Assembly: GCA_977862235.1 (NCBI GenBank)
Contig: OZ374564.1
Span: forward strand, 1,798,001-1,862,000
DNA length: 64,000 nt
Direction of reading: 5' to 3'
From: Dudresnaya verticillata
Taxonomy: Eukaryota
The translations under genes were made by a program, and so were the position numbers. Positions 246 through 38,009 of the stretch are shown piece after piece. Below the pieces are notes generated by a model. That model was not told where the DNA came from, did not search any database, and saw only the letters and a program-made list of their open reading frames with translations. Every line of letters starts with the position of its first letter. Position 1 is the first letter of the stretch.

Positions 246-942
246 ACAAGCAAATTGCTGCTCTTCACAGCGACAACAGGACCTAGGGAATTATACTGCG
301 CAGCAGTGTCTAGCACTGATCCTGTTTGGACATGCAATAGGATTGCGTGCACCAGCATGTTTAACTTGTGCTCTGAAGGCACCAAACGCGCGTCTACGTC
401 ATCGAAGTTGAGCCAATGTTCACGTGCCATTGTCAAACGCGCCGGAGGATCATAAAAATGCCTCCCTGAAGTGTATCTACCGCGACTTTGGAAACCACAA
501 TTTGTTCCGGTAATGAAAGGTGCCGCATTTCGCTCCTTGCAAGCAAACCGTGCACCTTGTGGCCGCTAGCCAGCACGACGTAAGCAAAAAACTCGTGCCC
601 TTCTAACAGCGACTTATCTGGGACCTCGTAGAAGGCGCCGTCAAACAGATGCGCCAGCCCTTCTTCCCGTGCCCATACATCAGTGTCAGTATGGCTGAAG
701 TGCAATCTCTGTTCACAAGTTAGCTGTCGATCGGGGGTAATCTTCCATGATTCAGCCATCTACCGCATCTCCTCTGCCAAGAGGTTTCATTTCGGTCTTC
801 CGTAAGCATACTGAGATCACCATTTTCTCAGGTCTTCTCATCACAATCATACTGCACTACGTAGCAAGAAGCAGCGGTAAGGGTCCGAGCGGTCGGTGGG
901 ACCTAAAATGAACAAAAACTGGTCCCATTCACGCTGGTTGAG

Positions 943-2223
943 CTATGTCATTGTGTACTTGGGTCCGCCACCGCCCTGCGGCACGGTCCAAGTGATATTC
1001 TGAGAAAGTTCCTTAATGTCACAAGCCTTACAATGCAAGCAATTCTGCGCATTGACCTGCAGGGTGCGATTCCCGCCATCCTTCTCTACATATTCGTAGA
1101 CTCTGGCAGGGCAGTAGCGACCTTCGGGTCCTCCAAATTGTGGCAGGTTAAGTTTCTCTGGGACGCTTTCGTCGGTCAATACCAGATGGCACGGCTCGTC
1201 ATGATCATGATCTGTTCCACTGAGCGATACCGACGTTAGGATATCAAAGGTAGCTTTCCCGTCTGGCTTCGGATAGTCAATTGGCTTTGCTTTTGAAGCC
1301 TGTTTTGTCGAAAGATGGTCTGGCTCCGGATGAGATAGCGTCCATGGTGAATATCCTCGTGTGAGATAGGATTCTAAGGCAGCATTTACCAGACCTGGTA
1401 TCAAGCCATACTTGAAGCCCGGTCGAATGTTCCTGACCTTTTTAAGCTCATCCCAAACCCATGAACCTTTCAGCTGCTCCTCGTACCCCTCGGTAGAATC
1501 CTTTGCACTAGTCAGATTCTCGAATACCGCATCTGCCGCCAGCATTGCGCCTTTTTGTCCAGTATGTGTACCCTTTATCTTTGGGGCGTTCAGGAAGCCA
1601 TGGCTTGCTGCAACAGAACATCCGCATTGGCCAATAAGGACCCCATCCGGAAACTCCAGTTCTGGAATGGATTGAAGCCCACCTTCATTAAGAGTACGGG
1701 CGCCGTACTGTAGCACCTCTCCACATTCAAGCAATGGTCTAACGGACTGGTGGCTCTTGTACCGCTGAAACTCCTGAAACGGGGATAGGTGTGGGTTGTG
1801 ATAGTCAAGCGCCACCACAAAGCCAATAGCCACTTGCTCGTCTGCCATATGATACAAAAACGAACCGCCATAAGTCGCAAAGTCCGTTGGATATCCAATA
1901 GTGTGAACGATCTTACCCGGCTCGTGTTTAGCCAGATCCACTCTCCATACTTCCTTCACGCCTAGCGCATACGTCTGATGCTGGCGACCTTCCGCGAGTC
2001 CATAGCGCTCCGTCGCTTGTTTCGTGAGAGATCCCCGCGCGCCTTCCGCCAGCAGCGCGGCCTTACCAACAACGTCAACCCCAGGCTCGAAAGTATCTTT
2101 GTGAGTGCCATCCTTGGCAACTCCAAAGTCATTTGTGGCGACGCCACGCACTTGCCCATCATCGCCGATAAAGTCGCTTAATGCAGACGCAGTCTGGGTG
2201 GATGTGCTCGCAGTTGACAGCAC
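943..2223 (-). pseudogene. ETFQO: Electron-transfer flavoprotein:ubiquinone oxidoreductase (ETF-QO), N-terminally truncated and degenerate copy
   Basis: Diagnostic motifs GVATND, YALGVKEVW, GGSFLYH, YGARTLNEGGLQSIP, KIKGTH, RYCPARVYE and the 4Fe-4S motif NCLHCKACDIK..GGGGPKY. Homology starts only near 2170, so the N-terminal FAD-binding GxGxxG region is absent. Several normally invariant positions are altered (insertion in the IGCSAGF motif, 'TGQKGAM', 'DIKELS'). Confidence 0.8.
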
Positions 2224-2559
2224 GATGGATAGGGAAGCGGGATGCGCAGGCTACTGCGGTGGCGCATACGTCAGGAAACACATCACAGTGCGTGACGGGG
2301 GCACGTCCGCGAGCGCTTCACAGTGCGGAGCATTTCCACAGACGCGGGCTGGGTGAATGGGCTCGCAGTTGACAGCAGGATGGATAGGGGCCGCTGGAGG
2401 TACTGTTCCGCGACACTGGTGTAGAGGAAGAGGGTTTGAAAAGAGAGGAGATGGTACCGCCTGATGGTGGGAGAGGGCGGTGACCACGAGGAGGGTGCAT
2501 GCGGTGAGGTTAGGGTGCGTGGAGACATGTTCCGCTGCAGGCGGGTGACCAGCAGCCGG

Positions 2560-2865
2560 ATAGCTAATTCAGTGAGACTTCCGCCGGAGCTATCAGCGCA
2601 TATGGATATTTTTTATAGCTCCCTGTCGCCGACAGATTCGAAAAGCTATTTTCTTAGGTTTTCCATTTCGGCGACTACGGGAGCTATGTAGCTAACGGAA
2701 TGCCGCGAGTGTAAATATCTATTTTCTTAGGTATTTTGATTTCGGGAAACACGGGAGCTATGTAGCTCCCGCGGAGGAGGAAGTCAAAAAGCTAAGAAAA
2801 TATATATTACATTTCTCCAGCGCCATTAGCTATTGGCTGATATTCATATTCGTTTATAGCTTTTC
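2560..2865. repeat. AGCT-rich region with a ~48-bp motif repeated ~73 bp apart; probable transposon subterminal sequence
   Basis: 11 AGCT tetramers in ~300 bp. CTATTTTCTTAGGT...CGGGAGCTATGTAGCT occurs at ~2646 and ~2719. Confidence 0.55.
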
Positions 2866-3769
2866 ACTTTGGTCCTCCTGCGTTTGCTACTTTCTCGAGA
2901 CGCCCAGCCGCACCGCTCCGAGCCCGACATCATCTGAAAACGTACTGCCACTCAAGAAAACACACACCACACAACACCAGCGCACTTGACAAGGGCAGCA
3001 CACGACTGGAACCCTTTTCACAGCGTAGGTCGAGCCCACGCCCCCGCCCCGTCCCCACTGCTTCCGCTCTTCGCATCCGGCGCCGTGCTCGGCTTAGCGC
3101 TCGCTGCAGATGATGGCTGCGTGGGCGGCGACGTTGTCCCGCTTGGAGGGTCCGTCGGCGCCGGTGCTTGTGATGTTTGTCGTGTGTAGCCGCCAGGGAT
3201 TTTCGGCCGTGCTCGGCCGTGCGCAGCCATAGCCGAAAGAGACGATGGCAATCTGCATAGGACGCTTTTCAGCTGCATACACTACGAGCTGTGATAGCCC
3301 AACGCCTGGATATGAGGGAGGCCCCGCAGCCCTCCGCATGGAACGAGACGAGATGGGAGCGCATAAAGTCCATGGCGGGCTGGCCACCGACGATGCTGGT
3401 CTGGGCGGCGCCCGGGGGCGACGTCTGGCAGGAAGACGGGTCAGTCTGCATAGTTGCGCGCGGCAAGCAGTGACCTTGGAAGCTCGACGGTGCAAACCTG
3501 TAGCGGCGCAGCCAGGAAGACCAGCAGCAAGAGGGGAAGTATGTTGTGGTCCGGGCTCGGGAGCGGCGGCGTCGGACTGAGATTCATGAGGGACGGTGGA
3601 TACCGGACGAAAGTTGGACTTTGCGCGAAGCTACTCCGCAGCCTGAGAAGTGGAACTCTCTGTCGCAGCGTAATGACGCCCAACCTACAGTCCCACTAAG
3701 ATTGGAGTTTGGATCGTTGCACAAGAGCGCGATCATACTCGGAAAGGCTTCCTATCACTGAAGCACGAG

Positions 3770-4424
3770 ATGCGGATGGCCCTGGAAAAGCAGGCCTATC
3801 TCAATGCGTCGGGGTATGACGTGTTCATATCCCACAGTGGGCTGGACAAGGAGACGATGGCTATGCCTTTGTGGAGTATGCTCCGCGACCGGGGCGTATT
3901 GGCATTCGTAGACAGGGAAAGTCTCGCAGTTGGTAATGACGCACACGGCTCGATGGATAAGGCAATGGAGAAAGCTCGAGTCGGTGTCTTCATTGTGTCG
4001 CCCGAGTTTTCCGCCAAGCGTTGGACGATGTGGGAGCTGATGTGCTTTCAGAAACGCTGCGCGCATGGTGTGAAAGTTCTCGCCCGCGTGCCAGCTATCG
4101 TTCCTGTGTTCTATCGCGCGCATGTGGACTACCTCGGAGATGAGGCAGCCTTGTTTTAAGCCTCTGACGAAGCTGGTGATAATGTCTTTGTCAAGCATGA
4201 GTTCTTTCTTTGCGCGTGCCGCGAAGGGAGAGACAAGAGTTGCTGCTGTGATGGGAAGCATGCGCTTTCTGAAGAAAACAACTGGCATCGAAAATTTTGA
4301 GAAGGCGACCAATGGGCATGATGCTGAAAGTAGAGGAAAGCGAGAGTTGCTACTGTGACTGGTTGCAGACGATGTTTTACGCGTTGTTGATGAATTGAGA
4401 GACTTGCAGAAGGTAGCTTCATAA
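3770..4424 (+). pseudogene. TIR-domain gene, decayed (premature stop at 4157-4159, a frameshift and a second stop)
   Basis: YDVFISHSGLDKE..LRDRGVLAFVDRESLAVG..KAMEKARVGVFIVSPEFSAKRWTMWEL..IVPVFY is a classical TIR signature. Plausible helical continuation (MRFLKKTTGIENFE..LVADDVLRVVDEL*) lies in another frame ending at 4424. Confidence 0.8.
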
Positions 4425-4753
4425 ATGATGAGAATCACCCAATGCACACGGAGGGCATGCAGCCGTTTCATGAACAGTATTGTGGTTTTTGGCGAGAGAG
4501 CTTCCAACGATTCAGTGCTCCACACCACGCAAAAAAGTGATAAACCGCTGGTAGAGACACTGCCCAACTGCAAATGACCAAGGCGCTCATCACCACCACT
4601 CCCGGAACCTCAGACTTAAGTGATTCGGGGCGGCGCATTTGTGAGGGCAACATGTCTGACGCCTTTTTCATACCAAGGGGTGGACTCTGGCGCATATCTC
4701 TACCCGGACAGCCACAGCTAGTGTCAAGTTCCGGATGCCTGCGCTCCAAGACA

Positions 4754-5071
4754 TCAAGAACCAATGCGCAGGGTATACTCTATCGCCTCATAGGCGGCAA
4801 TAAGCGCACCTTCAATCGAAGCACTATGCTCCGACGCGACTTCCGTGCCCGCAAACGCGAGACGGAGTGCTCTAAGCTCCTTTCTGAGCTCGGAGACATG
4901 CGCGCGTGTCTGAAACGGGTCAGGCTCTGCCTTTTGCGCTTGTGCAACAGGAGCCAAACTCTCTAACGTGAGATACGGCAGGCGACTAAAATCGAGCTTG
5001 AAGTTAGCAAGTCTCTTGCGAGCCTCAAAACCGAAAAGCACTTCGAGCTGGTCGATGACCTGATTCCGCAC
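4754..5071 (-). CDS. Small helical/coiled-coil ORF, probably cargo of element A
   Basis: 105-aa ORF with heptad-like segment HVSELRKELRALRLAF, co-oriented with neighbouring small ORFs. No family recognised. Confidence 0.35.
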   Translation of the reverse strand: MRNQVIDQLEVLFGFEARKRLANFKLDFSRLPYLTLESLAPVAQAQKAEPDPFQTRAHVSELRKELRALRLAFAGTEVASEHSASIEGALIAAYEAIEYTLRIGS

Positions 5072-5319
5072 GGCCGAATATCTAAGTCTGCGGAACTCGA
5101 GTGCATGCGGGAAAGGCGAGCAGCGAAGCGAAGGACTTTCGGGGCGAGTTATTCACGGAAGAGGGCAAATCCGAATAGTTCGCAATGGCCGTGTCCCATT
5201 ACAAATGTGTGCAATGGATTCCGCTGCTGGTCTCCAGGCTTCCCGCAGTGGCAACCCTTGATGGTAAGTGCTAGGACCGTTCTCATCTTTACTACAGCCC
5301 GATGGCAGTCTACTCAGTT

Positions 5320-5598
5320 CTAGACGGAATCGGAAGAAGGGTCTTCTATATTGCGATCTTGACGTCCTCTGACGACACGAACGGAACTATGCAGTTCTTG
5401 AATCCGGATCCTGGCGTTGTGAAGTGTTCTCAACGTCCTTCTCCCGAAGTCATGCACAAGGTGTCTTACGAAATCAAATGCCCTTTGCACTTCGGTTTCT
5501 AGCTCCCGCACAGTGTTACGAAGATGGTAGATTTCAGCACGTAGAAGTGCCAACTCTCGCTGCACTTCGGCCATTGTTGGATTGACAGGTAGCGGCAT
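5320..5598 (-). CDS. Small coiled-coil protein with acidic tail (element A cargo)
   Basis: MPLPVNPTMAEVQRELALLRAEIYHLRNTVRELE...NIEDPSSDSV. Same layout as ORFs 5624-5947 and 17562-17831. Confidence 0.45.
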   Translation of the reverse strand: MPLPVNPTMAEVQRELALLRAEIYHLRNTVRELETEVQRAFDFVRHLVHDFGRRTLRTLHNARIRIQELHSSVRVVRGRQDRNIEDPSSDSV

Positions 5599-5623
5599 TG
5601 TTTTTGTACGAAGTCTGCAAAAG

Positions 5624-5947
5624 TCACATGGAAGCTTGAAACTGATTCTCAATGTCGAGGTCCAGGTCGGGTTCATCTTCTTCGTTGCGTTGTATCCCCA
5701 ACACCCTTTCGATTGACCGCAGCCTTTTTCTAGCACTTCGGGCAATATGAACGGCATTTATCACTACTCTGGACAATCTTTCCATAACAGCGGCAACCAC
5801 CGCCCTCATTCGTTGTCGAGCTCTTTCCACTGCCGTCCTTAATCCTTTCACCTCGCCTCGAAGAGCACACAATTCGGACAGTAGGCGAGCAGTGTCGACA
5901 TCCGAACTTCCGCTGCCTTGGTTGCGACGAGCGTGCATGGATGCCAT
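5624..5947 (-). CDS. Small coiled-coil protein with acidic tail (element A cargo)
   Basis: RLLSELCALRGEVKGLRTAVERAR...LRSIERVLGIQRNEEDEPDLDLD. Likely tandem paralogue of 5320-5598. Confidence 0.45.
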   Translation of the reverse strand: MASMHARRNQGSGSSDVDTARLLSELCALRGEVKGLRTAVERARQRMRAVVAAVMERLSRVVINAVHIARSARKRLRSIERVLGIQRNEEDEPDLDLDIENQFQASM

Positions 5948-6043
5948 AATTCCTTCCAGCTGGAAATGTGCAGTGGACCATCCGCCGCCCTCGACTGGCA
6001 GAATGTACATCCGGTATAGCCCAAAAATAGATGGAGCAGACTT

Positions 6044-9000
6044 TCATGGCTCTCTATCACAACCCTCCATCATGTGAAGATCCCATGCGAAGAATGCGTT
6101 TAAGTCTCGCAGCAGTGCTGGCGGTTCCTCTGGACCCTTAAAAGTGTACATATACGGCCTCTCCTCGAACGCATCGCAAACTTTGAAGGAAAATACAGCC
6201 ACGAGATGCTCTCCCTCCTTGCCGAGCTCCCGCAACCCGTACTGGTTTATTTCTGTCTTCAGTCCGTGGCAGTCGTTACCCGGTTGCAGTACTGCCTTCC
6301 CAACCTTATCTGGACCACACAGCAGCCAAACTGCGTCACCACCTTTGAGTTGCGGTCGATCGCATGACAGCGGTTTCTCCCTAGGTTTTCCTGTACGTTT
6401 CCCAGACTGTTGCTTACCTGGGGACATCATTAGAGTTTGTGATTCCCTTTCAGACTGATCAGTGCGTACCCTCTTCGTGTCCGGCTCTTTGTCTATCTGT
6501 TTTGCCGAACGCGCCTGTGCTTGGACCCCTGCATCTTGAGACGACCCGTTCTGCTTCTCCTCGGCCATGCGGTGCAGGCGTGCACGAGCCAGTCTGTATG
6601 TTTCCGGGTTTCTTTCGACGAGGCAACACTCCCTGTCTGTCCGAACGCAGGCAATGCCTGTTGTCATTGTCCCCGCGTGAGAGTCTGGGACCGAGCCGCC
6701 TACTGAGATCATCACAACCTTCAGGGCAGAAGGTTGTGATGATCTCAGTAAGTGCATCAGGATTTTTCTCCTCCGTCAGAACTGGTGTCCTGCTAGTCCC
6801 TGGCTTCATGAGCTTATCTCTGGGTACGGGAACAGAGGTCAGCACAGCAAACTTTCGGCGCTCCTTACACGAGATGAAGTGGTATGGGCTGGAGAGGTCT
6901 GGAGAGAAAGCGTTCTTGGATGTGTACCCTTGCGCCTTCCGAAGGCTGCTGCCTCAGCCCCATTCTGCAGTCCCTTCTTGCGAATTATCTGGACAGTAGT
7001 TGTGTCTTTGCAGAGTGAGAAAGAGTACTGCGGACTATCGAAATTGTTGTCGGTAAGTGCCTTTTGAAACAGCGGGAATTTCAAGAAGCTGCAGAACAGA
7101 AACACCCAACCACCCTCCTTCACAACACGTCCACAAAACTCGCAAAGGCGCTTGATGTCTTCTCCACTGAAATGGTTTGCGTATGCAGTTCCAGTATTTG
7201 ACATTCCCTTCGGAGCACCATACGGAGGGTCAGCAAGCACGAGGTCAAATAGAGGACTGCATTCATTCCTGATTGATTGGTCATATTCCTCCCACTTCAT
7301 CTGATATGTTCGTATCCTGCATTTGGAAAGCAGGTCCTTCTCCTCCACATCAGAACCGGTATCCAGTCTCTCCGACTTGCATGTTGAAGAAACAGAACGA
7401 CTACCCGGTCCAATACACTCGTTCGGGATGTCATTGTTACCAGCTAATGCGCCTGTGTCGTTGTCGTCTGTAGGATCCAGGACCGATTGCGTATTCTGCC
7501 TCTGCGTGTCAGTTACAGTCTCCTTAACGGCTTCCGACTGCTTTTGGCCACCAAGGGCCCCCTTCGAGTCTTTTTCTTTCCCCCCTTGAGGTTTCCCATC
7601 AACTTCAGAACTCGTCTTATCAATCTCGGAAGCTGAAACTATTGGCCTGTCACTTTCTCCTATGTCTGGAGATGTATCTTTCCCAGAATCAGTTTCTGCT
7701 TGGAACTGGTGCTTGAATTTCTTTTCCTTAACTGGAGCTTGTTGCGGGCATTCCCTTCAATAAGCGTCTATCAAGGGCTTGAGCACATCGTGCTCATTTC
7801 CGAAGTTTGCACGCACCTCGTGGTCCAGCTTCGTGGAACGAAGGAGGTTCTGGCGAATGACATTCATACCTTCAGGCCAACTCTGGCTCTCGATAAGGCG
7901 TTCGAATTCCCGTGCTTCCCTCATTGCTGCTTTAGCCCTTCCAAATTGTTCCAGAGTCTGAAAGCTGGTGACTGACCGGAAAGTCTGAAGTCGATGTACT
8001 TCGCGTAGTCGGTACAAAGTTGAAATCTGTATTTCTACGCCATCCTCCAGTTTGTTCCCATTCATGAAGGCGATTGCAGACTTCAGTGATGAAATGTGGA
8101 TGAACTTTCTGTAGACTCGGCAGTCAATTGTTCTCATTGCTCCGTCCTTGTCGAGTGTTGTCCCTTCCTTGTCTCCTGTCATCTTTGCAGCTAGATCCGG
8201 TCTCTCCTCATTTGCAATTTGTCCAATTGCGTGAATTACTCTCGTATCCAACCGCATAACTGTCTGAGCAGTCTGTTTAATGGTGTTGTTCCGATATAAC
8301 TTCGAACCGTCATACGCCTCCGCAATTTTTGGGGCATTTGGTTGTTTCCCAGTCTTGGCCTGCAACCTCTCCGCCTCCTCCCGCAGACCGCGGACCAGGT
8401 CAAAAAATGTAGTCTCGATAAAGTATCCCTGGTCCTGTTTCTCATTCTGATGTCGTGCCAGATGCTGGAGCTCATGGACGTTGTGCCCACCCTTCAAAAT
8501 CGTTACAGGCCATGCGAAAGACTGCCAGACTGTTGGGAACTCCTCCATTAACTCCAAAATAACGCAATGTCTATGCAAGCCGTCAACAATGCCGTACCAT
8601 TTGGAGCGATTGTTTGCCTTCTCCAAAGCTTCCTCCTCCGTTTACTCCTTCCCTTCCCCTTTCATATTCTTGAAATACACAACGACGTGACCCCGCAGAG
8701 ACCCAGTCATTTCGATGACAATTGGAGAGTCAGACCCGGCAACGTACCCAATGGTCCCTTCACCGCCTTTCTTCTCTGATGAGTGTAGATGAATGCGAGC
8801 TTTGAGGCGTTCCACTCCGGAGCGCACCACGGGTCTTATTGCCGTTAGCGGGAAGCACGCCCTGGGGTCAATGCTCATATTCACGGAACCCTCCAAAAAG
8901 TCAGAAAACAATGCCCTCCCCATACTTGCAGAAGAGCAATTTTGGTCCGCCTCAGATTGTGTAACAGCACCCTTTCCTGAACGTTTCTTGCCCATCCAGC

Positions 9001-9052
9001 CAAAAATGTAATTCAGCACTTTTGAACAAACGGTCGCCATACGTCTTTCCAA
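6044..9052 (-). pseudogene. ParB/Srx-like domain - beta-class DNA N6-adenine/N4-cytosine methyltransferase - Tnp1/EnSpm-like domain fusion, disrupted
   Basis: ORFs 8642-9052, 7757-8626 and 6839-7348 share one frame, separated only by single stops at 8642-8644 and 7757-7759 (linker translated by hand and open). ParB motif WYGIVDGLHRH; MTase motif IV FDLVLADPPYG followed by RVVKEGGWVFLF. After frameshifts at ~6918 and ~6700-6720: EEKNPDALTEIITTFCPEG/GSVPDSHAGTMTTGIACVRTDRECCLVE, matching the motif X-I-II region of beta-class enzymes. Confidence 0.8.
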
Positions 9053-11199
9053 CTGGTTGCCGTAGATGTTTCCAACTGGTTGCGTTAAGCTGATGAGAAC
9101 GGGATAAGCGTTGCGGTTTCCACGAAGAGCACTTCGGGTTTACAACAATATGTCCGTAGTCAGGTCAGTGGTCACAGCATTGAAAGACAGGCCTGTCTTC
9201 CGGATATATCATGCCGGTTTCCAGCTTTAACCTGGAAACGAAGTTTGTCCCCATGACTAACAGCCTCACGTACGGTTTTAACTTTGCCGGAAAGATAGTT
9301 AGAGCCCTGTACCATTGGTGGTGCCCTGATACATTCCGCTAGATTACATGAAGTTACAAATCACTGCAGGGTTCTATTGGTCGTCGGTAAATATATCGAC
9401 GTATTGTGTGGTAGGGGTGTTCACCCTAAGTTCGTACTTTCTCAGAAAATATTTGGAAGGCAGTGCTAACCGTCCAACCGTACAGTGATTCCGATTCACA
9501 GCTGCCCTACTAGGGTATCTAAACGATGCTCAAGGCGGGTAAGAAATGGGCATACGAAATAGTTCCACAACGTGGAGGGGAAATTGGAAGTACGTGTGCC
9601 TGCGTAGGCACACTCCCTTGGACTGGGGGTGATGTGGACGATTCGCAAATGTACAGTCATTCCGATTGTAAGAACATGAACGTGTTCCTCAGAAACGATA
9701 GGAATAACCTCGGGTTTTAGAATTGGCAAGAGGCTACTGTCCGCCCTCACAGAGTCGTTTAACATTGACATTTCCTGAAACCTGCGCCTCCACCCTGCAG
9801 ATATGGTCATCATAAGACCACTGTAGCACCGAAACAAACTGATGATCACAATCTGCCATCGGATGCCAGGACAAACGTAAGTATGCGTGTTACCCAATGA
9901 TACAAGTAATATCAAGGTCAGGGAAATGATTAATACCATACGTGAGACCATAATACAGCCTGTACCAGTGTATCCAAGTGATCCCTGTAAATACGTTCCA
10001 GAATTGTGCACAGGTCAACATGTCCTCGTTCTAGCAATACAGAAAAGCCCTATTCTGCGGAGGTTCAGACAGTCTGATCTGCGGTTCCACCTAATATCTG
10101 GGCGGTGTATGTGAACTATGCAGCAAGTTGAGGCTGCATTTTTGCAGGGTCCTCATACTGCTGCCGGTATAAGTGCTTGGGTACAGTACGGTCATTCTGA
10201 TTACCGGAATTTGAACGTGTCCAATCGAAGATATATCCCTACTTGTATACAGAGAATGCCTAAGACTCGTACACAGCAAGAGCCATTAGCTACAAGTGTT
10301 ACTTTCCGTTTAAAAGCACGCAATAGTTGCATTTAACAGATCTCCTCGACGGTACTGAGGAACAGAAATACGGCTGTACACACAGAGAAGATGATTTCTT
10401 GCCGAAGTGTAGTCATTCCTATTACTATCGACATGCTCATTGACCTCCCGGTGTTGCCGGACGACATACAGTCCGGTTTCTGCGTATTTCATGACCTCAT
10501 GCGCTTTGAATTGAGGCGTCATTGGCAGAGCAGCACCGCCGCCTTAATGGTAACTCTTTGCAATTTTCGGAACGCATAATTCGATCCTTGGAGGTGAAAG
10601 ATGAAGAAAGAGTCATGGAACAGAACCGTGCTCGGGAGTTTGAGGTCGTTATGGGTCAATACGATCATGACCAGAACATGCTCACAGTGGTATACCGTGG
10701 GGTATGAAGAAGCTTGATTACGTATCGGGGGATTCTTTCTCCGGATCCGAAGCTCATGAAATCGATACCGTCTTGGTCGAGGCTATTCGCCTCGCAAGCG
10801 AGCCAGTACGGGATATGGAGCGAATGTGCCGCCTTCTCCTGACTTGGCATTTCGCCAAAACTAACGCAGAAGGGACTGTGGAGGTAAAGGAGGCAAGAGT
10901 GGCCCGTGCGGAGCATGACGTGCGCTTCATGTATAAGAAAGCTTCGTCGTGCAAGTCTGTTTAATATCGACCAAGGATGAAGTCGACCAATCAATCTGAT
11001 TGCGTAGCAAGGAGTAGTAATTGGAGACGCGCGTCGGTCTTGACTACGTGTGCTTATGGCCGTACCTTTCGTCGTCGGTAATGTTAGAAACGAAAAGACT
11101 TCGACGGTTGTATTCTTGACGAGCGACGTAATACGAATTACGCTCCTGGCGGCTTTTGAATTTGCCATGTCCCCGCGAGAGTACTTCCTGCACAATAGC

Positions 11200-12009
11200 T
11201 GTGTCGGGATTTGACATCAGCTTCTTTTCCTCTCTCTACTGAATATCAACTAGGAAGGCCTTGAAACCTCCAACTCGTTCCGTTTATCCGCAGTTCTTTG
11301 CATTTGCCTGTCCATGAACGCGTTCCATAAATGTAGGAAAAACAGACCGGTCGAATAGTCTGATTCACAGTGCCTCAAGGCCGGTGAACCGCTTGCCTTC
11401 GGAGATGCAGTTGTCAATTAATGCGAGTAAGTTGGACTCACCAATGCGGCGGACCATATCTTTGTCAGTTTCCTCTGTTCTGCGCAGGGCATTGAAATCC
11501 AGACACGACAGATCCTGGCTCTTCCCAAGCAGTTCATCACTGACTTCTCGTACAGGCTCCCTAGGTACGAGGTCAGACATCTTCCCCTTACGTACGAGGA
11601 TGTGCGTTTGGACTCCCACAGGGGGTAGTACATGAGCGGAGGATTTCTGCATCAGGACTTTGGATCGCTATTGTTCCGCTGGGCTACATACCGTGTACTT
11701 TTTGTACCTAAATACAAGATTGGATTCATCATGCCTGCCACGTCGAATGTTCAGACACGCGAAGTTTAACCCACTATCCTCTCGAAACCGGGACCAGCAA
11801 ATTGATTCCTTCTTCGCCACGTATTCGGGGCAGTTAATGCTGCACATGTTGATATCGACGCTTGTTTCAATACATGTGCGAGCCCGAGCCCTGTATTGTG
11901 GAAGGGGAGTATGCGACGGAAAAATAGAGTTATCAATAGTGGTATCAGAACGACCTATCTGGGTTCTCGTCTTCATTTCAGCAACCTCGGCTGATGGTAT
12001 CCCTCCCAA
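11200..12009 (-). pseudogene. Element-encoded gene of unknown function ('LFDRSVF' family), disrupted
   Basis: Reading through the stop at 11365 gives ...CISEGKRFTGLEAL*IRLFDRSVF, homologous to ...GTEIIGLETLGIKLFDRSVF at 18082-18632. The upstream helical segments also align. Confidence 0.55.
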
Positions 12010-13347
12010 CTGTACTCAGACCCGTTCAGGCATTACGAAACGAGCTGGGCACAATTATGCTTTAAGACCCACTGAGACGCATGGCACAGGAAGTAGACAA
12101 CCAAGATGCGGCAATTGCCAATGCACCTAGGTGCATTGGCAATTGCCGCATGTATTATATCCTTTTCATGAAGAGGCTATCTACGCCTTGCAGGCAGCAC
12201 CATACCTGGACCAGGAACCCGCAATGGCAGCTGACGAGTCAGTGTGAAGTGGGTCAACAAATGTCGCCAAGAGCGGAAACATGTCCCTTTCATGAGCACG
12301 TCCTGCTCATTTAACACCGTAGATTGTCAGTGCTTCAGTTATCGAGTACACTGAATGTTATTAACCCTGACGCATCTGGGGAGCAGGGTCGTGGGAGTTT
12401 GGACGCTATTCTCAACCGCAATGGTGGTGGACTGGAAGCGATCCCCCTGAAGGTTAAATGAGCTTACCAAACGCCGCATTTACTTTCCCCCAATGGAGCT
12501 TGCGAAATTGCCTCAATGGATGGGCCTACGGGCATGGTTGGAACGGGGAACCTTTGGGGTGTCGACAACGCAATCGGTCGCGCGCGTGGTTAACCGGGAA
12601 ACAGCTGCAGGCTTATACATTTTATTACCATTGCCTAACGAACTACGTAGTGTTGGGTGCGTGTCATGGAATGGCCATACTTTTGTCTGCGAGTTGTCAT
12701 AAAATCGGCATGTGGCGTCCCATCGTAGAGAAATACGGGCGGGCGGATCGTGCAGCGCGGTCGGGGAGCGACGGGCAGGGCGCGCTGACGAGGTGACGGC
12801 AGCGGGATCCACGGTGTGCACGAGGGTGGGCAACCGCGACAGCAGGTTTTGCCCAAGGAGTTGTGCGTCGCGGGGCGGGGCGGGGGGGCGGGTGACGAGG
12901 CAGTCTGTATGCGGTCGCGTACGGATTTGTGCACAGACGCGCACAGCACAGTGCACCCGTTGCACCAGAACGCCGAAAACTGGTGACGGGGTAGTCTGCA
13001 GGCGGCGCCGAGCACGCGCGGGGAGGGCCAGATGGGCGATGCGGCGCGCCTGCAGCGCGCGCGGCGAGGGGCATGCTGCGGGCCGGCAATTTCCAATTTG
13101 GCCCAGTGCGGACCGCGGAGTGGGCCGCGCGGGCCAAATCGACGCCAGTAAATTGAAATTCAGAATACCTCGAAATATTTTGGGTAAATTCACGCAAACC
13201 GCCATAAATTTCGAAGGAATGGTCCGTTAGCCAATCGGATTTCACCACCGTACTCAGGGGACGCTCCCCTTTCCAACCATACTAGAAAATAGGTATTCGA
13301 CTCCAGTCTGTTTCGAAAGTCGTATTCTGAAATCGCTCAAATGCGTG

Positions 13348-16300
13348 TTGACGGAGCACTACATCGACTTGCTTCCCGGCTCTCGCCGGATCCCCTCTCC
13401 ACCTTATCGCGCTGGGCCGTAACAACGGCAGCACGCGCAAGCGGAAGTCGATCGCATGTTGCGTCAAGGGGTAATCGAACCGGCACAATCGCGTTAGGCG
13501 TCGCCAGTCGTCTTCGCCCCAAATAAGGACGGAACTCTTTGCTTTTGCGTACATTATCGTCGGCTGAACGTAGTAACCATACGGATATATATCCGTTACC
13601 ACGGATTGACAAATCCATCGACAGTCTAGGAGATGCCAACGTATTCACCACCCTAGACTGTAATGGCAGATACTGGCAAGTGCCAATTGCTCCGCGGGAT
13701 CGCGACAAGACGGCCTTCACGTGCCACGCCGGCCTCTTTGGCTATAAGCGTATACATTTCTGTTTGCCCGACGCGCCGGCCATGTTTCATCGGACTTTCG
13801 AGATATTACTCGCTGGGTATAAGTGGCGTTCGTGCCTCGTCTATTTGGACGACGTTATCATATTTTCAAAGGACGTTGATACACAATTCCGTCACGTTGA
13901 CGAGATACTGTCCATGTTGCACCGTGCCGGGGTGGCTTTGAAGCTGACCAAGTGCGACTTCTTAACCCCAACGGTCAACTGTTTGGGAAATGTGATACAT
14001 ACAGGACTATTGGAAGTCGACCGAACGGTTACCGCCGCGTTGCGCGAAGCCAAGCACCCACGGGACCAGAAGACGTTACGCAGTTTCCTCGGGCTGTGTA
14101 ACGTCAGTAGACGATTAGTATCGCGTTACGCGCATGTTGCTGCTCCCCACAAGACGTTGCTCCGAAAGTAGCAAGAGTTCACACTACCGTCCTTTGACGA
14201 AGTACAATTGGCCGCGTTCGACACCTTCATCGAGGCCGTAACCAGTCCGTCCGTGTTGGCGCTACTACAGCCAGGCTTGCACTATTCCGTCGATTATAAC
14301 GCTCGCGAATACCAAGTTGGGTGCGCCCTCTTTCAGGCGCAACCCAATGGGGAACAGAAGCCGCTCGGGTTCTGTTCGCGTTCGCTCACCGCTCCGGGCC
14401 GTAATTATTCCGTCTCTGAGAAGGAGTGCCTGGCGGTATTGTGGTCAGTTACAACGTTGCGTCCGTATCTCCAGATGGAGTCATTCACCTTGCACACGGA
14501 CCAATCTTCGCTGAGGTGGGTGGTGGAAATCAGCGAACCTCGGGACGTTTGATGAGATGGCGACTTCGCCTCTCGGAATTCGACTTCGTCGTTAAGTACA
14601 ACAAGGGTTACTGTACCAACCAGGCTAATGCCCTTTCACGTCTGCAGACGAATGGGTAAGCGGTTGAACCGATCGACGACGATGTGCCGTGCTACCATGG
14701 GGAACACGTCGAGGAAGAACACCAGGCGTCGAGTGACAGTGCGATTAACGTCGAAGGCGAAGTCGGCTTTTTGGAACGCGCGTTTGAAGAGTTCGACCGA
14801 CTACTTGTCGAAAAAGGGCCTCCAACGGATGAAGTACTCCTGCGTCAAGTAACGAACGAGGAACTGATCCATACCCAAGCCAACGATGAGGACTGTTCCG
14901 GGATTCTGAGGCGTCTCGATGAAGGTGAATTGATACCATTCGCAATGGACGAGCAGGGATGACTTAGACGAACTGTGGAGGTCCGACCGCAAGCCCTCGT
15001 GCCCTTCGCGTTACGCATTGGCCTCCTGCACCTCAGGCATTACGATATGTTAGCGGCACACCCGGAGGGAGGAAAATGTATCAGACGCTTCGAGCGCGTT
15101 CTATTGGCCGTCAATGACGATAGATTGTTACGCAACCGTTCGCAACTGCGTTACCTGTGCGAAGGACCGCGTCCTGTTGCGAAAGAACGTGAAAGAGATG
15201 AAGCTGTTCCCGGCTAGCGAGCTGCTCGAGGTCGTTTCTATCGACATCCTCGGAGAACGCATACGTACTAAACGGGAAACAAGTTCCTCCTTTTCATCGT
15301 CGATCGCTTTTCGAAGCTGATCAGGACGGTACCTCTACGTACAAATACGGCTCTGGAAATCGCAAAAGCGTTCTTTCGACATTTGGTATTCGGGTATGGT
15401 CCGCCAAAGCGCCTACTGTCAGATAACCGGCCACAGTTTGTCGTCAAACTATTCCAGGACATCTGTCGTCTACTAGGTGTCGGGAATCTCTTCACCACTA
15501 CGTATCACCCTCAGTGCAACGGACAGGGGGAACGGCTTAACCGGACGATACTCGCATCGTTACATTGCTACGTGGCAGACCACCCTCGGGACTGGGACCT
15601 GTTCACGGATGCGTTGAATTTCGGTTACAACACGCAGATCCACTCATCAACCCAGTTGTTGCCGTTAGATTTGGTACTGTCCCGACCACCAATCCCTTTA
15701 TCGGTTCAAGCGGAACTGTCGCTGGAAAGCATTCCAACCGGCGGTCAATACTACACGAAGTGGAGGGCATGGTTGACCGAGTTGATGAGCACTGCGACGC
15801 CGACGTTGGCACAAACGCAAGCACACTACAAGCGGGACTTAGACGCTCGACTACGGAAATCCGCCGAGAAAATTGTCGCTGGGGATTTAGTATTTATTCG
15901 CAAGGACTGTTTCGCCAGGGGCGGCTAGAGGGATCAAGCGGAGCGCAAGCATAAGTTAGCGCCGGTAGCGGATGGACCTTACAGAGTGATCTGCGTCAAC
16001 GACGGTACAGTAACCGTCGACAAGGGACGCAACGAACACGAACGGCTATCAAGGAAGCCCGTCGTTTGGGCACCGACCCCTCCGGGTCATGTACCAATCA
16101 GTACCACGCAGCCGCGGATCAGCAGTCCGATGGGCCGCCGCCTGCCTAAGAATTCGTCAACAATGAAACGGACGTTGCTACCGCTAAAACCCCAAACGGG
16201 GGTGACCGACAGACGCGTGGAGACCGCTCGTCGCAGGCATCCGTTCGCGGCCTTGGCGAATTAGCTCCGCTTGCGGCTGGCCCCGGTAGTGAGTCGTCAC

Positions 16301-16533
16301 ATTCCGTCTCAGACGATGGTCAACCGCAGGGCGTCTGTACTAGGTTCGGCGTCGCTAGGCATACGCCGGCCACACCGTAGGCTGATCCAACTCAAAGCGT
16401 CCCCGATGTGACCAAGGCCACGCCAGGGACGGTAGGAAGCAAAGATCAAACTCCGACTGGGCCGGCGAATCGAACGCCAAAAGCAAGCCCGTCTCCGGCC
16501 GAGGGAGTTCGCTTTGCGATACGGGACGTTAAA
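13348..16533 (+). mobile_element. Ty3/Gypsy LTR-retrotransposon pol fragment (RT-RNaseH-integrase), dead and truncated at both ends by CAC-terminated elements
   Basis: TEHYIDL..SPPYRAG, YPLPRID..LDCNGRYWQ, YLDDVIIF, RNaseH NYSVSEKECLAV..HTDQ, integrase HHCC (H..AAHP..CVTC) and SIDILG / SDN / GQGERLN. Many stops and frameshifts. Confidence 0.95.
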
Positions 16534-17561
16534 CACAGGTTTCCCGCGTTTCAGAATTTACTTTCAAAAACAGACTGAAATAAAAGCCTTCCAAAGTACA
16601 TGCGTTGGAAAGGGAGCGTCCCGTGAGCACGCTGGTGCAAACGGAGTAGAGAACTAAGCAGTAGTTCCCGAGTTATGTTGGTTGGCGTGCTAACCCGGCA
16701 GTGAGTCTGAAATAATTAATTTTGTTTTTAATTTCTGAGACTTTTTAATTCTGATTTTGAGGTAACCTAGGCTAGTTCCACGGGCCCTTCACCGCGCAGT
16801 ATACGCTGTCCCAACAGTGCAGAACTACTCGTCAGTTCAATGCCGCTCTCCCCATGACATGCAGAGTACTGCAGCACTGCCATGAATTCCCTTCCCGGAC
16901 TCAATCCGGTACAACTTCGGGCATTCGTCAGCCGGCAACTGCACGCTACACTCTCTACTTCTATGCACTCTCTGCTCTTCCCTAGGCTTCAGTACTTGCT
17001 CTGCGCAGTCGCACTCGCCCGCTACACTCTCCCTCCGCACCGACACATCGGCTCGTTGTCCTTCGCGACAACCAAAAACCCCACCCAAGTATTGTAATCC
17101 CTGTTTCACCAACGTTACAGCATGTGCTGTACAGTGCGACGGCATTCATGTAGCGCTCCTCCCAGTGCATACCGTCCTCTCCGTCGACCTACTCCGTGTG
17201 GTTTGGACTGGGCTCCGGTACTGAATTTTTTCCCACATCGCCGTGAATTCGCCGTGGTCATAAGTTGGATCTCGTTCCCCGCTCCGGACACCTCGTACTT
17301 CACACTTGCAGTTCCCTACACATGTAGCGAGCTGCAGCTCGCCAGACACCCCGGTCAAAACCACAAACACCAATTTCTAGTCATGCACTTGAACCAACTT
17401 CGAAAGTGCACTCAAAGATATCTCCCATAGTAGTCCGCACCACGATTCCTTACTTGCGCCCGTTCCCCTCTTCAATCGCCTCAGCATGATAGACATAAAC
17501 AACCGCTCCCGTACTCACTTTATCTGTAACTAACTCTCCTCAACTACCTTTACCCTAAACC

Positions 17562-17831
17562 TCAGTCCGCTTCAGACTCCGGGTCTTCTTCATCGACCTC
17601 CACCGCCCACCGCCCTAAGAAAACTAGTATTCCCTCCAGCACCACGTTCACCGCCTCCCTAACTACGACAGCATCCGCAATCATGACCCGTGCCCATCCC
17701 AACAAGTCCAAACGAAGCCATATGGCGTCACTGGTATGACGCCTGGCTCGTGCCCGAGCTTCTTCTAGCTCGGCGCGCAGTCTCCGTACCCTCAGCACCA
17801 ACGCTTCCGGTGCTTTATCGCAACTCTCCAT
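17562..17831 (-). CDS. Small coiled-coil protein with acidic tail (element B cargo)
   Basis: LVLRVRRLRAELEEARARARR...FLGRWAVEVDEEDPESEAD. Same architecture as 5320-5598 and 5624-5947. Confidence 0.45.
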   Translation of the reverse strand: MESCDKAPEALVLRVRRLRAELEEARARARRHTSDAIWLRLDLLGWARVMIADAVVVREAVNVVLEGILVFLGRWAVEVDEEDPESEAD

Positions 17832-18081
17832 CTAAGTCGTCTCCAACAACCCTCAAACCGGCACTGTAACACTCCCATTTATAGACGGAACCGGGCACCA
17901 TTCTGAAGTTTAGTTGATCTCGTTTACACCAACTCTGCACATATTTTCCCTATTGCGACACCGCTACAACGTCGGGAATCGTTAGCATGCAAACCGTTCT
18001 TGGTGCGTAGTTTTTATTCTTTTAGCGGACGCGGCGAATCCCAATCGATGGGAGTACCTGGTGGAGAAATGTTCACAATGT

Positions 18082-18632
18082 TCATCCTTGAGATTCTGCG
18101 CTTCTCTTCATGGACTTTGCGAACTGCTTCTCATACTTCCTACGTTCTCGTGCCGACAAGTTATCCATGTCTATAAGCAGAGGGTTGGGAGCCATCTCAC
18201 GCAGCTTCTGCATTCCTCTCTCCCTTGCATCCCTAAGGAAGTTGCTCAATGCGAAATATTGCCCGCGCCCTGCCACACTGTATTGCCCTTCTTTCCCTAT
18301 TACATCCCTCATAAAACTCTTGAATACCGACCTGTCAAAGAGCTTTATGCCCAGAGTTTCTAGACCGATTATTTCCGTCCCTCGCTGCTGAAGTATATCA
18401 ATATACTCTCCAATCTTGCCACTCTGAACCGTTTCATGATGTCCTTCGCACACTCCCCGTCCTTGCACAAGTCGGCTACATTCAGGGACTCCATTTTCTG
18501 GCCCACTTCCACCATATCAAACGTTGCTTCCTGCAGCTCTGTCAGACATTGACGGTGTGCAGCCCGGTTTCTGTGCTCCATTCTGTTCTGTTCGATAGTG
18601 ACATTCATGTGCCATGCACGATTCAAGTTCAA
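18082..18632 (-). pseudogene. LFDRSVF-family element gene, frameshifted and 5'-truncated
   Basis: Overlapping ORFs 18369-18632 and 18082-18468 join into one protein homologous to 11200-11652. Confidence 0.55.
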
Positions 18633-21600
18633 TGGCTCAGCAACTTGTTGAGGGGGGCAGCGACATGCGCGTATCGCGAGACGAACCGTCTGTAGACGTT
18701 ACAAAGACCGAGGAAGCTCCGTAGCTCCTTCTGATCCCGTGGATGCTTGGCTTCGCATAGCACGGCAGTGACAGTGCGGTCAACTTCTAACCGTCCTGGA
18801 CGTATGGCGTGACCCAAGCAGTTGACGGTCGGGGTGTAGAAGTCACACTTGGTCAACTTCAGAGTCACCCCGGCGCGGTGCAATGTCGAAAGGATCTCGT
18901 CAACATGACGGAAGTGACTGTCGATGTCGCTGGAGAAGATTATTACGCCGTCGAGGTAGACGAGACACGAACGCTATTTGTAACCAGCGAGCAGTATGTC
19001 CAACGTTCGTTGAAACGTAGCGGGTGCGTTCGTGAGACCGAATGGAATACGCTTATAGCGGAACAGTCCGGCGTGGCACGTGAAAGCGGTCTTATCGCGG
19101 TCTCGCGGATTGATCGGCACCTGCCAGTACCCACTGTTACAGTCTAGGGTGGTGAAGCGCGGCAGCGGGTACGTATCCCGTACGGTTACTGCGTTTAAAC
19201 GGAGGTAGTCTACGCAAAAGCGGAGGGTCCCGTCCTTCTTGGGGGCGAAGACCACTGGTGACGCCCACGGAGATTGTGCGGGTTCGATGACCCCTTGACG
19301 CAGCATGCGGTCCACTTCCGCTAGAGCGAGTTGTCTTTGCTTCGGCCCCGCTCGGTAAGGCGGGGACGATATCGGTCTAGAGCCGGGACGCAGGTCGATG
19401 TAGTGCTCCGTGGTTGAGATTTCTCCCAACGAACCGTCCCACATAGACGAATACTTGCGTAACATCTCCTTAAACCAACCTTGATGCTCGGCGGGGAGAT
19501 GTCCCAGGTCCAAATCGTCTACTGACGGAGACTTGGCAGTGGTTGCCTTGATGGACGTCGTGAAAGTATCCGGCTTTGCCGTATTATTATCGGTCGTTTG
19601 AAAACGTAAATCTTGGTTTGCCTTCTCCGCATCGGCCTGTTCCTCTGTGAGGCCCAAAACATCGGCTAGACTTACGTGACTGGGGAACACTGCTGTCGGC
19701 TGTGGTAACGCCGTCGCGACGACTTGGCCCTTGGCCAGCGCCTGCGGGCGGGGAGAGAAGTTGGCAACCAGGATGCGAAACGCTTTTAGCGGCTCCACTT
19801 GAGCAATCCCGTTCGTAGCGGCCAGACCTTGTTTGTCGTACAGCGTTCCGAACGGTTGAATTGTGATGACGCCGGCGCGCTCGGTGGTCATTGATACCCA
19901 TTGCTGCGCCTTAGGCGGGATGATCGCGTGCTCGGTTACTCGTATCTTGGGCGACGTCCTTCCTTCGGCCTTGCCGTATTCCTGTTCCGTTGGTAACGGA
20001 GGATACGACGGGGGTCGGCGCAGGGGGCGGCGCGTTATAGGGACACGAGTCCCGTCGTCCAATTCGACCTCGCGACTTCGCGGATATATTGCTTCGACAA
20101 AACGGTCGCAAAAGTCGCAGCCGAGTATAACCGGCGCAGCGAGTCGGTCGCAAACGATCAGTTCCAACTTGACGACTCGCCGTCCCAGACGAACGACCAG
20201 GTCGATGGTGCCTCTTGTCTGGATCGCCTTATTGTTGGCGTCGGCTATGACGGGGAGGCTTTTTGCCGTGATGCGTGATCGGGAATATCGTCAATGCGAA
20301 TGAAATTCGGACCGGCCCCCGTGTCGAGGACAGTAAGTTTATGTACCAAGGTACTAATGGTTGCGCCCAAGTCGGCGTACACTTTGTAGTTCCTTTTGGC
20401 CATTACAAACAACTGCCCCCGCGCCTGGGGGGCTGGTACCTTCGCCATCGGCGTTTTAATGACGTCTGTGACGACTCTATCCGCCCGCTGGCGTCATCAG
20501 TAACTAACTTCGGGCCCTCCTTCCGTGTCAGCACCCGAGGCTTAGGCCTCTCTTCGCGGTGTGACGCCCCAGTGTCAGGATTCGGTGCCGAGTTATTTTT
20601 TCGCCTGCGGCGGTGGTTGTGGCGCTACGCAGCGATTGATCATCGTCGGATGACGTTCTGCCGCGTGCGATATGGGTCCGCCTCTTGGCGATTGTGGTCG
20701 TGCAGCACGGCGAGCAGCGTCGCGGATCGCGCGTTCCTTGCAACGGACATACGCATCAGCGGGGACACCAGCCTTCTCGGCTTCGGTTAGTCCTTCATAG
20801 TTGGTAATAACCTTCATGAAGTCGCTCATGCGGAGGAAGCAGTCCGGCGCGATGTGTCCACGAGCGTAACATTGGTGGCATACCAGCTACCGACGCGCGT
20901 CTTGACGGGGCGGACCTCTGTCCTGCCATCCGGGCCCTGCTCGGTGAACGTGAGGGGTATACTCGGAATAGGGAACGCCTGGTGCGGGTACTACCGAGCG
21001 CCCAAAGACGAGAGCGGGGTCCATATCCCTTGCGTCTTCGTCATCGACGTAGCTGTCCATCGGTAAAACCGAAGTTGGCACCGACGCTTGCTCGTCTGCC
21101 AAGTATAGATCGCCATCGGCGTGTGTTTCCATGTCATCGACAGGGCGGCTAGCATCTCGGAACTCGACGGAGGACTCCGCTATTATAGCGCGCGCTCCAG
21201 GCTTCGCGCCTCTCGTCTGTGGACGCAGCACACCTCGGGCATCGCCGATGGCGGGTCGCGACGTGCGTACGGCTTGAGCGTGTCAGTATGTATCGTAGTG
21301 CTAACGCGGAACCGGCCCTGCCGTGTCGTGCGCGGTTGGCATCCCCTTCATCCTGTACGAAGTGGATCAGTCGCTCAAATGACAACTCCGCCCTCGGCAT
21401 TTCTTCTCGGAAGCGAGCGACCAGGGACCTGATGGATGGGTCTAACCGGTCGATGTACAGCGTCATCTTTTCCAAATCTGGATATACGTTACCGCAACGA
21501 ATACACGCACCGGCTAGCCGCATCCCATAGGTCGTCTCGTCCTCGCCTTGCTTCTGGACGGTCGACCGTAGGTCGAGGACAGCGTCCCTGATCGCCGCTG

Positions 21601-37836: not shown

Positions 37837-37869
<33 letters not shown>

Positions 37870-38009
37870 CCCCTCGCGCCGCCGCCCCCGCGCCGCGTAA
37901 TAAAGACCAAAGAGCCCAGCGCCGCACCCACCGCCACCGCACCAGCCACCCGCCACCCGCCGCTCCACCGCCCCGCCCCCTCGCTCCCTCGCGCCGCCCA
38001 CCCGCCACC

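What the first reader, a model, noticed from the sequence alone, without database searches (positions are those of the whole stretch)
6044..9052. Eukaryotic transposon-borne ParB - DNA amino-methyltransferase - Tnp1-like fusion
Seen: five ORF fragments reconstruct one ~1000-codon frame (2 in-frame stops, 2 frameshifts). It runs ParB/Srx motif YGIVDGLHRH, a low-complexity linker, DLVLADPPYG, a K..(D/A)L..II..F.PEG..V.D..AGT.TTG.AC motif X-I block, and a C-terminal VWLL..VGKA..CHG..VAV..RP..LL.DL..FFAWD domain. Established: motif IV preceding motif I defines beta-class N6A/N4C methyltransferases (N6_N4_Mtase family); DPPY usually indicates N6-adenine; ParB-plus-methylase fusions are typical of phages and prokaryotic mobile elements, not eukaryotic DNA transposons. 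Inference: the C-terminal domain resembles the En/Spm Tnp1 (Transposase_23-like) accessory domain. A CACTA-type element may therefore have captured a prokaryote-type ParB-MTase into its accessory protein, to mark or protect its own DNA or evade host silencing. This copy is dead.
Basis: partly seen in the sequence, partly recalled or inferred. Interest (0 to 1): 0.9.

Follow-up and report, generated by a model that had tools for sequence, protein, structure and literature searches.

The report
Dead transposon-type ParB-methyltransferase fusion gene
This is a broken copy of a eukaryotic gene that joins a bacterial-type ParB fold to a DNA-methylase domain, with four copies of a private repeat upstream; it likely rode on a jumping gene and would have bound and chemically marked that element's own DNA, a kind of protein already reported, but never tested, in algal transposons.

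Summary
Observation confirmed: one minus-strand gene of about 990 codons (9040-6044) broken by two stops and two frameshifts. Intact relatives exist (922-1010 aa, 40-43% identical), in a family of at least 64 divergent members. The N-half folds like ParB/Noc/KorB and keeps the GxxR motif. The middle is a beta-class N6/N4 methyltransferase (DPPY; PF01555 above cut-off in the intact relatives). The roughly 100-aa C-terminal domain is conserved but unassigned: no test supported the Tnp1 label. No transposase, TIRs or CACTA ends were found, so the carrier is unknown. New here: a private 17-bp direct repeat occurs four times upstream and nowhere else in the window, a candidate binding site. The concept is published: a 1104-aa ParB plus N4C/N6A methyltransferase on an Ectocarpus Sola1 transposon, and ParB and methylase accessory genes on red-algal Plavaka elements. 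This scan also noted similar fusions on other DNA. Best reading: a dead transposon accessory gene whose product bound and likely adenine-methylated its own element; activity, target and mobility are inferred. About two thirds of the family lack the canonical catalytic motif, so binding may matter more than methylation.

The parts
6044..9040 (-). Broken ParB-HTH / amino-methyltransferase / orphan-domain gene, about 990 codons
8405..8914 (-). ParB/Srx-fold core with Box II GxxR (DGLHRH at 8584-8567); interrupted by TAA at 8642-8644
   Evidence: AF2 model of the window's N-half, mean pLDDT 90.2; Foldseek top hits Noc/ParB; VIA Z 9.2 PadC, 8.2 sulfiredoxin; boundaries
7715..8404 (-). Conserved all-helical region, predicted HTH followed by a helical bundle; TGA at 7757-7759 near its end
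   Evidence: KorB aligns over model residues 50-369 (Z 7.2, rmsd 6.7, 193 aligned); HTH-type chains align at 203-274 at only Z 4-5
7307..7714 (-). Low-complexity linker, not conserved
6575..7306 (-). Beta-class N6/N4 methyltransferase domain: motif IV DPPY (within 7246-7217) before an eroded motif I (6697-6668); both frameshifts fall here
6701..6750 (.). Perfect hairpin (22-bp arms, 6-base loop) made by a 19-base insertion; the second frameshift; likely a template-switch mutation
6050..6349 (-). Conserved C-terminal domain of about 100 aa, no family assigned
   Evidence: alignment A4; present in 31 of 66 relatives that extend 120 aa or more past the methyltransferase; no Pfam, PDB or Atlas assignment
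9480..10423 (+). Four copies of a private 17-bp direct repeat (9480, 9651, 10186, 10407) in the upstream spacer, plus a weaker inverted core at 9697; candidate binding sites
   Evidence: 4 matches in 64 kb, all here; 0 of 100 shuffles reach 4; largest repeat family 4 against at most 2 in 60 simulations

Best explanation
This is a dead copy of a gene that fuses a ParB-fold domain to a beta-class DNA amino-methyltransferase, likely carried as an accessory gene by an algal DNA transposon, whose protein would have bound that element's own repeats and methylated adenines in it. Shown: the broken frame, the fold of the N-half, the methyltransferase family and motif order, intact relatives with the same architecture, and the upstream repeat. 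Inferred, step by step: (1) the helical region behind the ParB core reads the 17-bp repeat; (2) the ParB core binds a nucleotide triphosphate through GxxR and lets the protein clamp or oligomerise on the DNA; (3) the DPPY domain deposits N6-methyladenine on nearby element DNA; (4) the mark or the bound protein keeps the element transcribed or competent to move. The C-terminal domain is an optional module of unknown role. The carrier superfamily is not identified.
For: Intact same-architecture relatives P0002, P0003, P0005 (922-1010 aa, 41-43% identity) score 45.9-57.8 bits on PF01555 against a cut-off of 26.7. The family profile's best PDB hits are beta-class DNA methyltransferases (5hek E 2.5e-18, CcrM 6pbd E 1.2e-9). 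The N-half model's best matches are Noc/ParB (E 6.5e-3, prob 1.0), PadC Z 9.2 (rmsd 4.0, 122 aligned), sulfiredoxin Z 8.2 and KorB Z 7.2, and viral ParB-like proteins (best E 2e-4). The window's copy sits in a supported clade (SH-aLRT 96, quick tree) of 6 rows, all DPPY; all 6 rows of the matching group also keep GxxR. Selfish-element pattern: 64 divergent rows with all three regions, decay here and in a second assembly (L001, one in-frame stop), and retroelement debris around it. The upstream repeat is beyond chance. Published precedent: Ectocarpus Sola1-1 carries a 1104-aa ParB plus N4C/N6A methyltransferase (PMC12477816); Bostrychia Plavaka PAG3 (ParB) lies beside repeat arrays; VANC targets form tandem repeats (PMC5735166 abstract) and TnpA binds clustered family-specific motifs.
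Against: No transposase in the ORFs scanned (12, 18, 83 and 89; 32-46 kb and very short fragments not scanned). No TIR pair over 10 bp with a target duplication of 3 bases or more. Only 22 of 64 full rows keep [DN]PP[YF] and 46 of 94 keep GxxR, so both activities are dispensable in many lineages. In a screen of ParB-fold proteins 17 of 28 purified ones bound no NTP (bioRxiv 10.1101/2025.10.10.680097), and phage T-dioxygenase ParB partners work without their NTP residues (PMC13229309 abstract). The repeat is direct, whereas ParB sites are described as inverted repeats, and nothing ties it to this protein but position. Structure matches are individually modest (no PDB Foldseek hit at E 0.001 or better).
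Confidence: 0.62

Rival explanations
1. Same transposon accessory gene, but its working role is DNA binding or scaffolding (anti-silencing or transpososome assembly); the methyltransferase domain is largely a DNA-binding relic.
For: 42 of 64 full rows lack a readable canonical motif IV (a few are gapped there); a supported clade of 27 rows keeps long open frames with mostly EPPx or unrecognisable motifs, 1 of the 27 being DPPF. DIRS1 methyltransferase domains are described as likely inactive (PMC4738411).
Against: The window's own clade keeps DPPY and GxxR across 40-57% identity, which argues for selection on catalysis in this lineage.
Confidence: 0.2
2. A host gene, or cargo of a non-transposon element (endogenous virus-like or non-autonomous Pack-type segment), that has become a pseudogene.
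For: No transposase or ends found; broken ETF-QO and TIR fragments lie nearby; the best viral fold match is a giant-virus protein.
Against: Many deep paralogous lineages and repeated decay; published relatives by architecture are transposon-borne; no full-length relative in the IMG/VR scans that ran.
Confidence: 0.13
3. Bacterial or phage contaminant, or mis-assembly.
For: Both main domains are prokaryote-type; nearest Atlas clusters are phage ParB_N + N6_N4_Mtase fusions (score 0.92).
Against: GC 0.50 against 0.46-0.61 in neighbours; flanked by Gypsy, LINE-type RT, kinase, GT61 and WD40 sequences; no relative in two GTDB pattern scans; phage matches cover only the methyltransferase, 26-27% identity in the top rows.
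Confidence: 0.03

Closest known systems
Accessory protein of Ectocarpus Sola1-1_Ec32 (PMC12477816; passages and supplement rows read)
   Same: [quoted passage not shown]
   Different: That one is on a defined 21.5-kb Sola-1 element with 282-bp TIRs and is transcribed; here the carrier is unknown and the copy is dead. Sequence homology could not be tested (the FASTA supplements are unreadable); no C-terminal orphan domain is mentioned in the passage read.
Plavaka accessory genes PAG2 and PAG3 of red algae (Bostrychia; bioRxiv 10.1101/2025.02.11.637652; passages and section 8 read)
   Same: PF01555 methylase and a ParB-like domain carried by giant red-algal DNA transposons, mobile between Plavaka, Mutator, Zisupton and Fanzor elements; repeat arrays next to the ParB gene.
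   Different: There the two domains are in separate genes (methylase+SET; ParB+2OG oxygenase). Here they are fused, with no SET hit in 65 proteins scanned, and the repeats are dispersed direct copies, not tandem inverted arrays.
Phage ParB_N + N6_N4_Mtase fusions (L003 protein; Atlas clusters; ParB-terminase loci in PMC4738411)
   Same: Same domain order; the methyltransferase aligns by profile (probability 96.6, E 5.7e-10).
   Different: Phage proteins are about 400-510 aa and lack the roughly 230-aa helical region and the C-terminal domain; the ParB part has no sequence-level match to Pfam ParB_N, PHROGs or NCBIfam.
VANC (VANDAL) and TnpA (Spm) anti-silencing proteins (PMC5735166 abstract; bioRxiv 10.64898/2026.08.24.746577 passages)
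   Same: Transposon-encoded proteins that act on family-specific motifs in their own element.
   Different: They remove 5mC (TnpA through host demethylases); no ParB or methyltransferase is mentioned, where TnpA-like proteins are said to appear restricted to flowering plants.
Bdelloid N4CMT (PMC8885841 passages)
   Same: Beta-class PF01555 enzyme of bacterial origin in a eukaryote.
   Different: Host gene with SPPY and a chromodomain that writes 4mC; here DPPY and ParB.

Membership tests
Beta-class N6/N4 DNA methyltransferase (PF01555) | Catalytic motif IV precedes SAM-binding motif I | tested here: met
   DPPY within 7246-7217 precedes motif I at 6697-6668 on the minus strand
Beta-class N6/N4 DNA methyltransferase (PF01555) | Profile score above the curated cut-off | tested here: met
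   Intact relatives 45.9-57.8 bits against 26.7; the window's broken fragments alone stay below (12-15 bits)
Beta-class N6/N4 DNA methyltransferase (PF01555) | Methylates DNA; base is adenine rather than cytosine | not testable with these tools
   DPPY points to 6mA and SPPY to 4mC by convention (PMC8885841); no activity data
ParB-CTPase fold | ParB/Srx fold | tested here: met
   VIA Z 9.2 and 8.2, with ParB/Srx-superfamily chains in the top ranks
ParB-CTPase fold | Box II P motif GxxR (definition) | tested here: met
   GLHR in the window; 46 of 94 family rows
ParB-CTPase fold | Box I and Box III motifs, NTP binding | tested here: inconclusive
   Conserved Arg (87 of 94) and R-x-Q-N (Asn 81 of 94) sit at plausible places but were not mapped onto a ParB-CTP structure; nucleotide not predictable from sequence
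Canonical ParABS ParB | Linked parA gene | tested here: not met
   No ParA Pfam hit in the neighbouring ORFs
En/Spm Tnp1 (Transposase_23, PF03017) | Profile or structural match of the C-terminal domain | tested here: inconclusive
   0 of 18 aligned domains and 0 of 65 whole proteins hit PF03017; no PDB or Atlas hit; no profile-profile or fold comparison with plant Tnp1 was possible
En/Spm (CACTA/Plavaka) element | Linked DDE transposase | tested here: inconclusive
   None in the ORFs scanned; a decayed, deleted or trans-acting one is not excluded
En/Spm (CACTA/Plavaka) element | CAC...GTG terminal inverted repeats with target duplication | tested here: inconclusive
   No convincing pair between 2250-6040 and 9050-13400; ends may be eroded or lie outside
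Plavaka PAG2 | Methylase fused to a SET domain | tested here: not met
   No PF00856 hit in 65 proteins
Algal transposon ParB + amino-methyltransferase accessory proteins (Sola1-1 type) | ParB-like and N4C/N6A methyltransferase domains in one protein of about 1000 aa | tested here: met
Algal transposon ParB + amino-methyltransferase accessory proteins (Sola1-1 type) | Sequence homology to the published protein and location inside a multi-copy element | not testable with these tools
   FASTA supplements unreadable; no genome held

The most novel reading that the evidence does not exclude
A eukaryotic DNA transposon uses a bacterial ParB-type, nucleotide-gated clamp that loads at private 17-bp repeats and carries a fused methylase along the element, writing 6mA on its own copies only: a self-addressed epigenetic writer with parS-like loading sites.
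Probability: 0.2. Interest if true: 0.85.

Novelty: new member of a known kind. Interest (0 to 1): 0.5.

Why it matters
The class is published only as a prediction. If it works as inferred, transposons write their own DNA mark, which would be a new route to 6mA in eukaryotes and a counterpart to VANC/TnpA anti-silencing. This analysis adds what a test needs: intact relatives that keep both DPPY and GxxR, a confident fold for the N-half, natural variants that lack the motifs, and a candidate binding repeat. The copy in this window is itself dead and ordinary transposon debris.

Tried and rejected
No genome is held, so copy number and element ends could not be read. No sequencing run was listed; this says nothing on expression. 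The metagenome scan gave one 2.3-kb locus. GTDB scans and IMG/VR scans gave no relative, and one search gave three phage methyltransferases only; these are pattern-limited scans. The whole-protein fold from 9 sequences was poor (pLDDT 46.6) and was not used. Co-loss of motif IV and GxxR looked strong (16 both, 26 neither, 13 discordant of 55; Fisher p 1.7e-4) but fails after correction for kinship (3-5 independent pairs, sign test p 0.5-1): a lead only. The careful tree did not finish; both trees are quick ones; 8 near-duplicate cluster members were left out. The C-terminal domain found only family members (5 hits) and does not match the neighbouring ORF. The neighbouring broken ORF at 11218-12015 found no homologue. 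No Rfam match in 2000-19000; sigma-70 scan at chance level. A GANTC target was considered from the CcrM likeness and dropped: only 1 of 4 repeat cores holds it. Literature searches; none listed a paper whose title or abstract start reports a biochemical test of a transposon ParB-methyltransferase or names this C-terminal domain, but the library lacks most subscription papers. The Current Biology version of the Bostrychia paper is not held, Iyer 2011 (ref. 50) was not read, and the bioRxiv supplement with the curated PAG-bearing elements could not be seen; any of these may describe this exact family.

Full report
Observation. Read with X at the stops, 9052-6902 gives 717 residues with a TAA and a TGA in frame. 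Frame bookkeeping places one frameshift at about 6915-6916 and a second as a 19-base insertion at 6701-6719; this insertion makes a perfect hairpin with 22-bp arms, which I read as a template-switch mutation (inference). The gene runs from ATG 9040 (or 8995) to the stop at 6044-6046, about 990 codons. Full-length homologues align across all the breaks.

Relatives. A search with the read-through found 10 proteins at E 1e-77 or better, four of them 887-1010 aa at 40-43% identity. None of the 20 clusters looked up carries a name, and their longest contigs are about 2-13 kb. A profile search of 1.84 billion representatives gave 269 proteins at E 1e-30 or better, of which the best 150 were seen. 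Local profiles showed 64 non-redundant rows, the window's included, with ParB core, helical region and methyltransferase in this order. One further genomic copy (L001, 2.3 kb, another assembly) has an in-frame stop. Pattern scans found no relative in GTDB genomes and no full-length relative in IMG/VR.

N-half. Pfam gives only weak ParB-superfamily hints (DndB E 5e-4 in 1 of 54 proteins). A model of the window's residues 9031-7760 built on 94 sequences is confident (mean pLDDT 90.2, pTM 0.82). Foldseek ranks Noc, ParB and KorB chains first, although none reaches E 0.001 (best 6.5e-3). The wide structural search gives PadC Z 9.2 (rmsd 4.0, 122 aligned), sulfiredoxin 8.2, free serine kinase 8.0, KorB 7.2 and pNOB8-like ParB 7.1, above unrelated rows at about 5. 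Viral ParB-like proteins lead the BFVD list. The Box II motif GxxR (defined in bioRxiv 10.1101/2025.10.10.680097, passages) is intact here and in 46 of 94 rows. A helical region follows whose first part matches HTH-type chains only at Z 4-5, so DNA binding is predicted, not shown.

Methyltransferase. Intact relatives pass the PF01555 cut-off, and the family profile's best PDB hits are beta-class DNA methyltransferases. Motif IV (DPPY) precedes motif I. DPPY is the usual 6mA signature (PMC8885841, passages). Only 22 of 64 rows keep [DN]PP[YF], and a supported clade of 27 rows has mostly lost it. The window's copy belongs to a clade that keeps it. Loss of motif IV and loss of GxxR go together in raw counts but not significantly once kinship is allowed for. 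The nearest clusters by language-model features are phage ParB_N + N6_N4_Mtase fusions (score 0.92, 190 of 256 features), and one such phage protein aligns by profile over the methyltransferase only. A phage-type ancestor is therefore likely but not shown: I built no tree with prokaryotic outgroups.

C-terminal domain. It is real: 8 invariant columns in 18 sequences, present in 31 of 66 relatives long enough to hold it. It has no Pfam, PDB, PHROGs, NCBIfam or Atlas assignment and retrieves only family members. The Tnp1 label is a resemblance from memory that my tests neither support nor exclude.

Surroundings. The window is eukaryotic: Gypsy and LINE-type remnants, a protein kinase, a GT61 glycosyltransferase, WD40 repeats, TIR and ETF-QO fragments. 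I take it for a red seaweed from recalled traits (compact, intron-poor, GC-rich genes); no call shows this. The gene's GC (0.50) matches its neighbours. No transposase was found in the ORFs scanned and no convincing terminal repeats flank the gene. The 1.3-kb spacer upstream holds four copies of a 17-bp direct repeat and the rest of the window none; since the motif was picked from the data, I also asked how large the best repeat family is in simulated sequence: at most 2 in 60 runs, against 4. Broken ORFs of unknown kind lie on both sides and may belong to the same element.

Mechanism. Best reading (0.62): a transposon accessory protein that binds its element's private repeat through the helical region, uses the ParB core as a nucleotide-dependent clamp or oligomerisation switch, and writes 6mA nearby to keep the element active. 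Domains, motifs, decay and the repeat are shown; binding, catalysis, mobility and benefit are inferred. Rivals: binding-only role (0.2), host or non-transposon cargo (0.13), contaminant (0.03).

What is known. [quoted passage not shown] The Bostrychia preprint (passages and section 8) describes Plavaka genes PAG2 (methylase+SET) and PAG3 (ParB+2OG oxygenase) with adjacent repeat arrays. PMC6431247 (passage) notes 16-20 kb En/Spm elements with 4-5 ORFs in Chondrus, so a CACTA carrier stays plausible. PMC4738411 (passages and section 8) traces other eukaryotic N6A methyltransferases to phage ParB-terminase loci. Supplements that I could not see may hold this very family. Earlier notes of this scan report similar fusions and a ParB gene with private palindromes on other DNA; they are unchecked and I count them as leads only.

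Verdict. A real, well-supported dead copy of a known but untested kind of transposon accessory gene. It differs from the published red-algal genes in having both domains fused plus an orphan C-terminal domain, and it offers a candidate binding repeat. Interest 0.5.

Noticed in passing
window 12106-12151: Perfect 46-bp palindrome with no loop; possibly another template-switch scar or an element end.
   Followed up: no
window 11218-12015 (-) and 18085-18698 (-): Two decayed paralogous ORFs of unknown family (local alignment z 14.5); no homologue or Pfam hit. The second is cut by a Gypsy remnant.
   Followed up: partly
window 5323-5947 (-): Two tandem short helical ORFs just downstream of the gene resemble each other (z 7.4); a weaker look-alike at 17565-17831 (z 2.9).
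   Followed up: partly
window 10340-10960 (+): Broken ORF pointing away from the ParB-methyltransferase gene across the repeat-bearing spacer; no Pfam hit.
   Followed up: partly
window 433-2250 (-) and 3677-4159 (+): Frameshifted ETF-ubiquinone oxidoreductase sequence and an isolated TIR-domain fragment.
   Followed up: no
window 2570-2870 and 46513-46994: AT-rich patch with short AGCT-containing direct and inverted repeats, and a 25-bp inverted pair 432 bases apart: MITE candidates.
   Followed up: no
window 13300-16300 (+) and 18630-22000 (-): Two related Gypsy remnants in inverted orientation, 77-79% complementary over the RT region.
   Followed up: no
window 35932-46065: Four paralogous genes for signal-peptide-like, Cys-rich plus Ser/Pro/Thr-rich proteins; not scanned against Pfam.
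   Followed up: no
family rows: A supported clade of 27 long open-frame relatives has mostly lost the catalytic DPPY and often the ParB arginine: natural pseudo-enzyme variants.
   Followed up: partly
L003:9272-10645: Phage protein with ParB_N + N6_N4_Mtase that shares the short TFCP motif with this family.
   Followed up: partly
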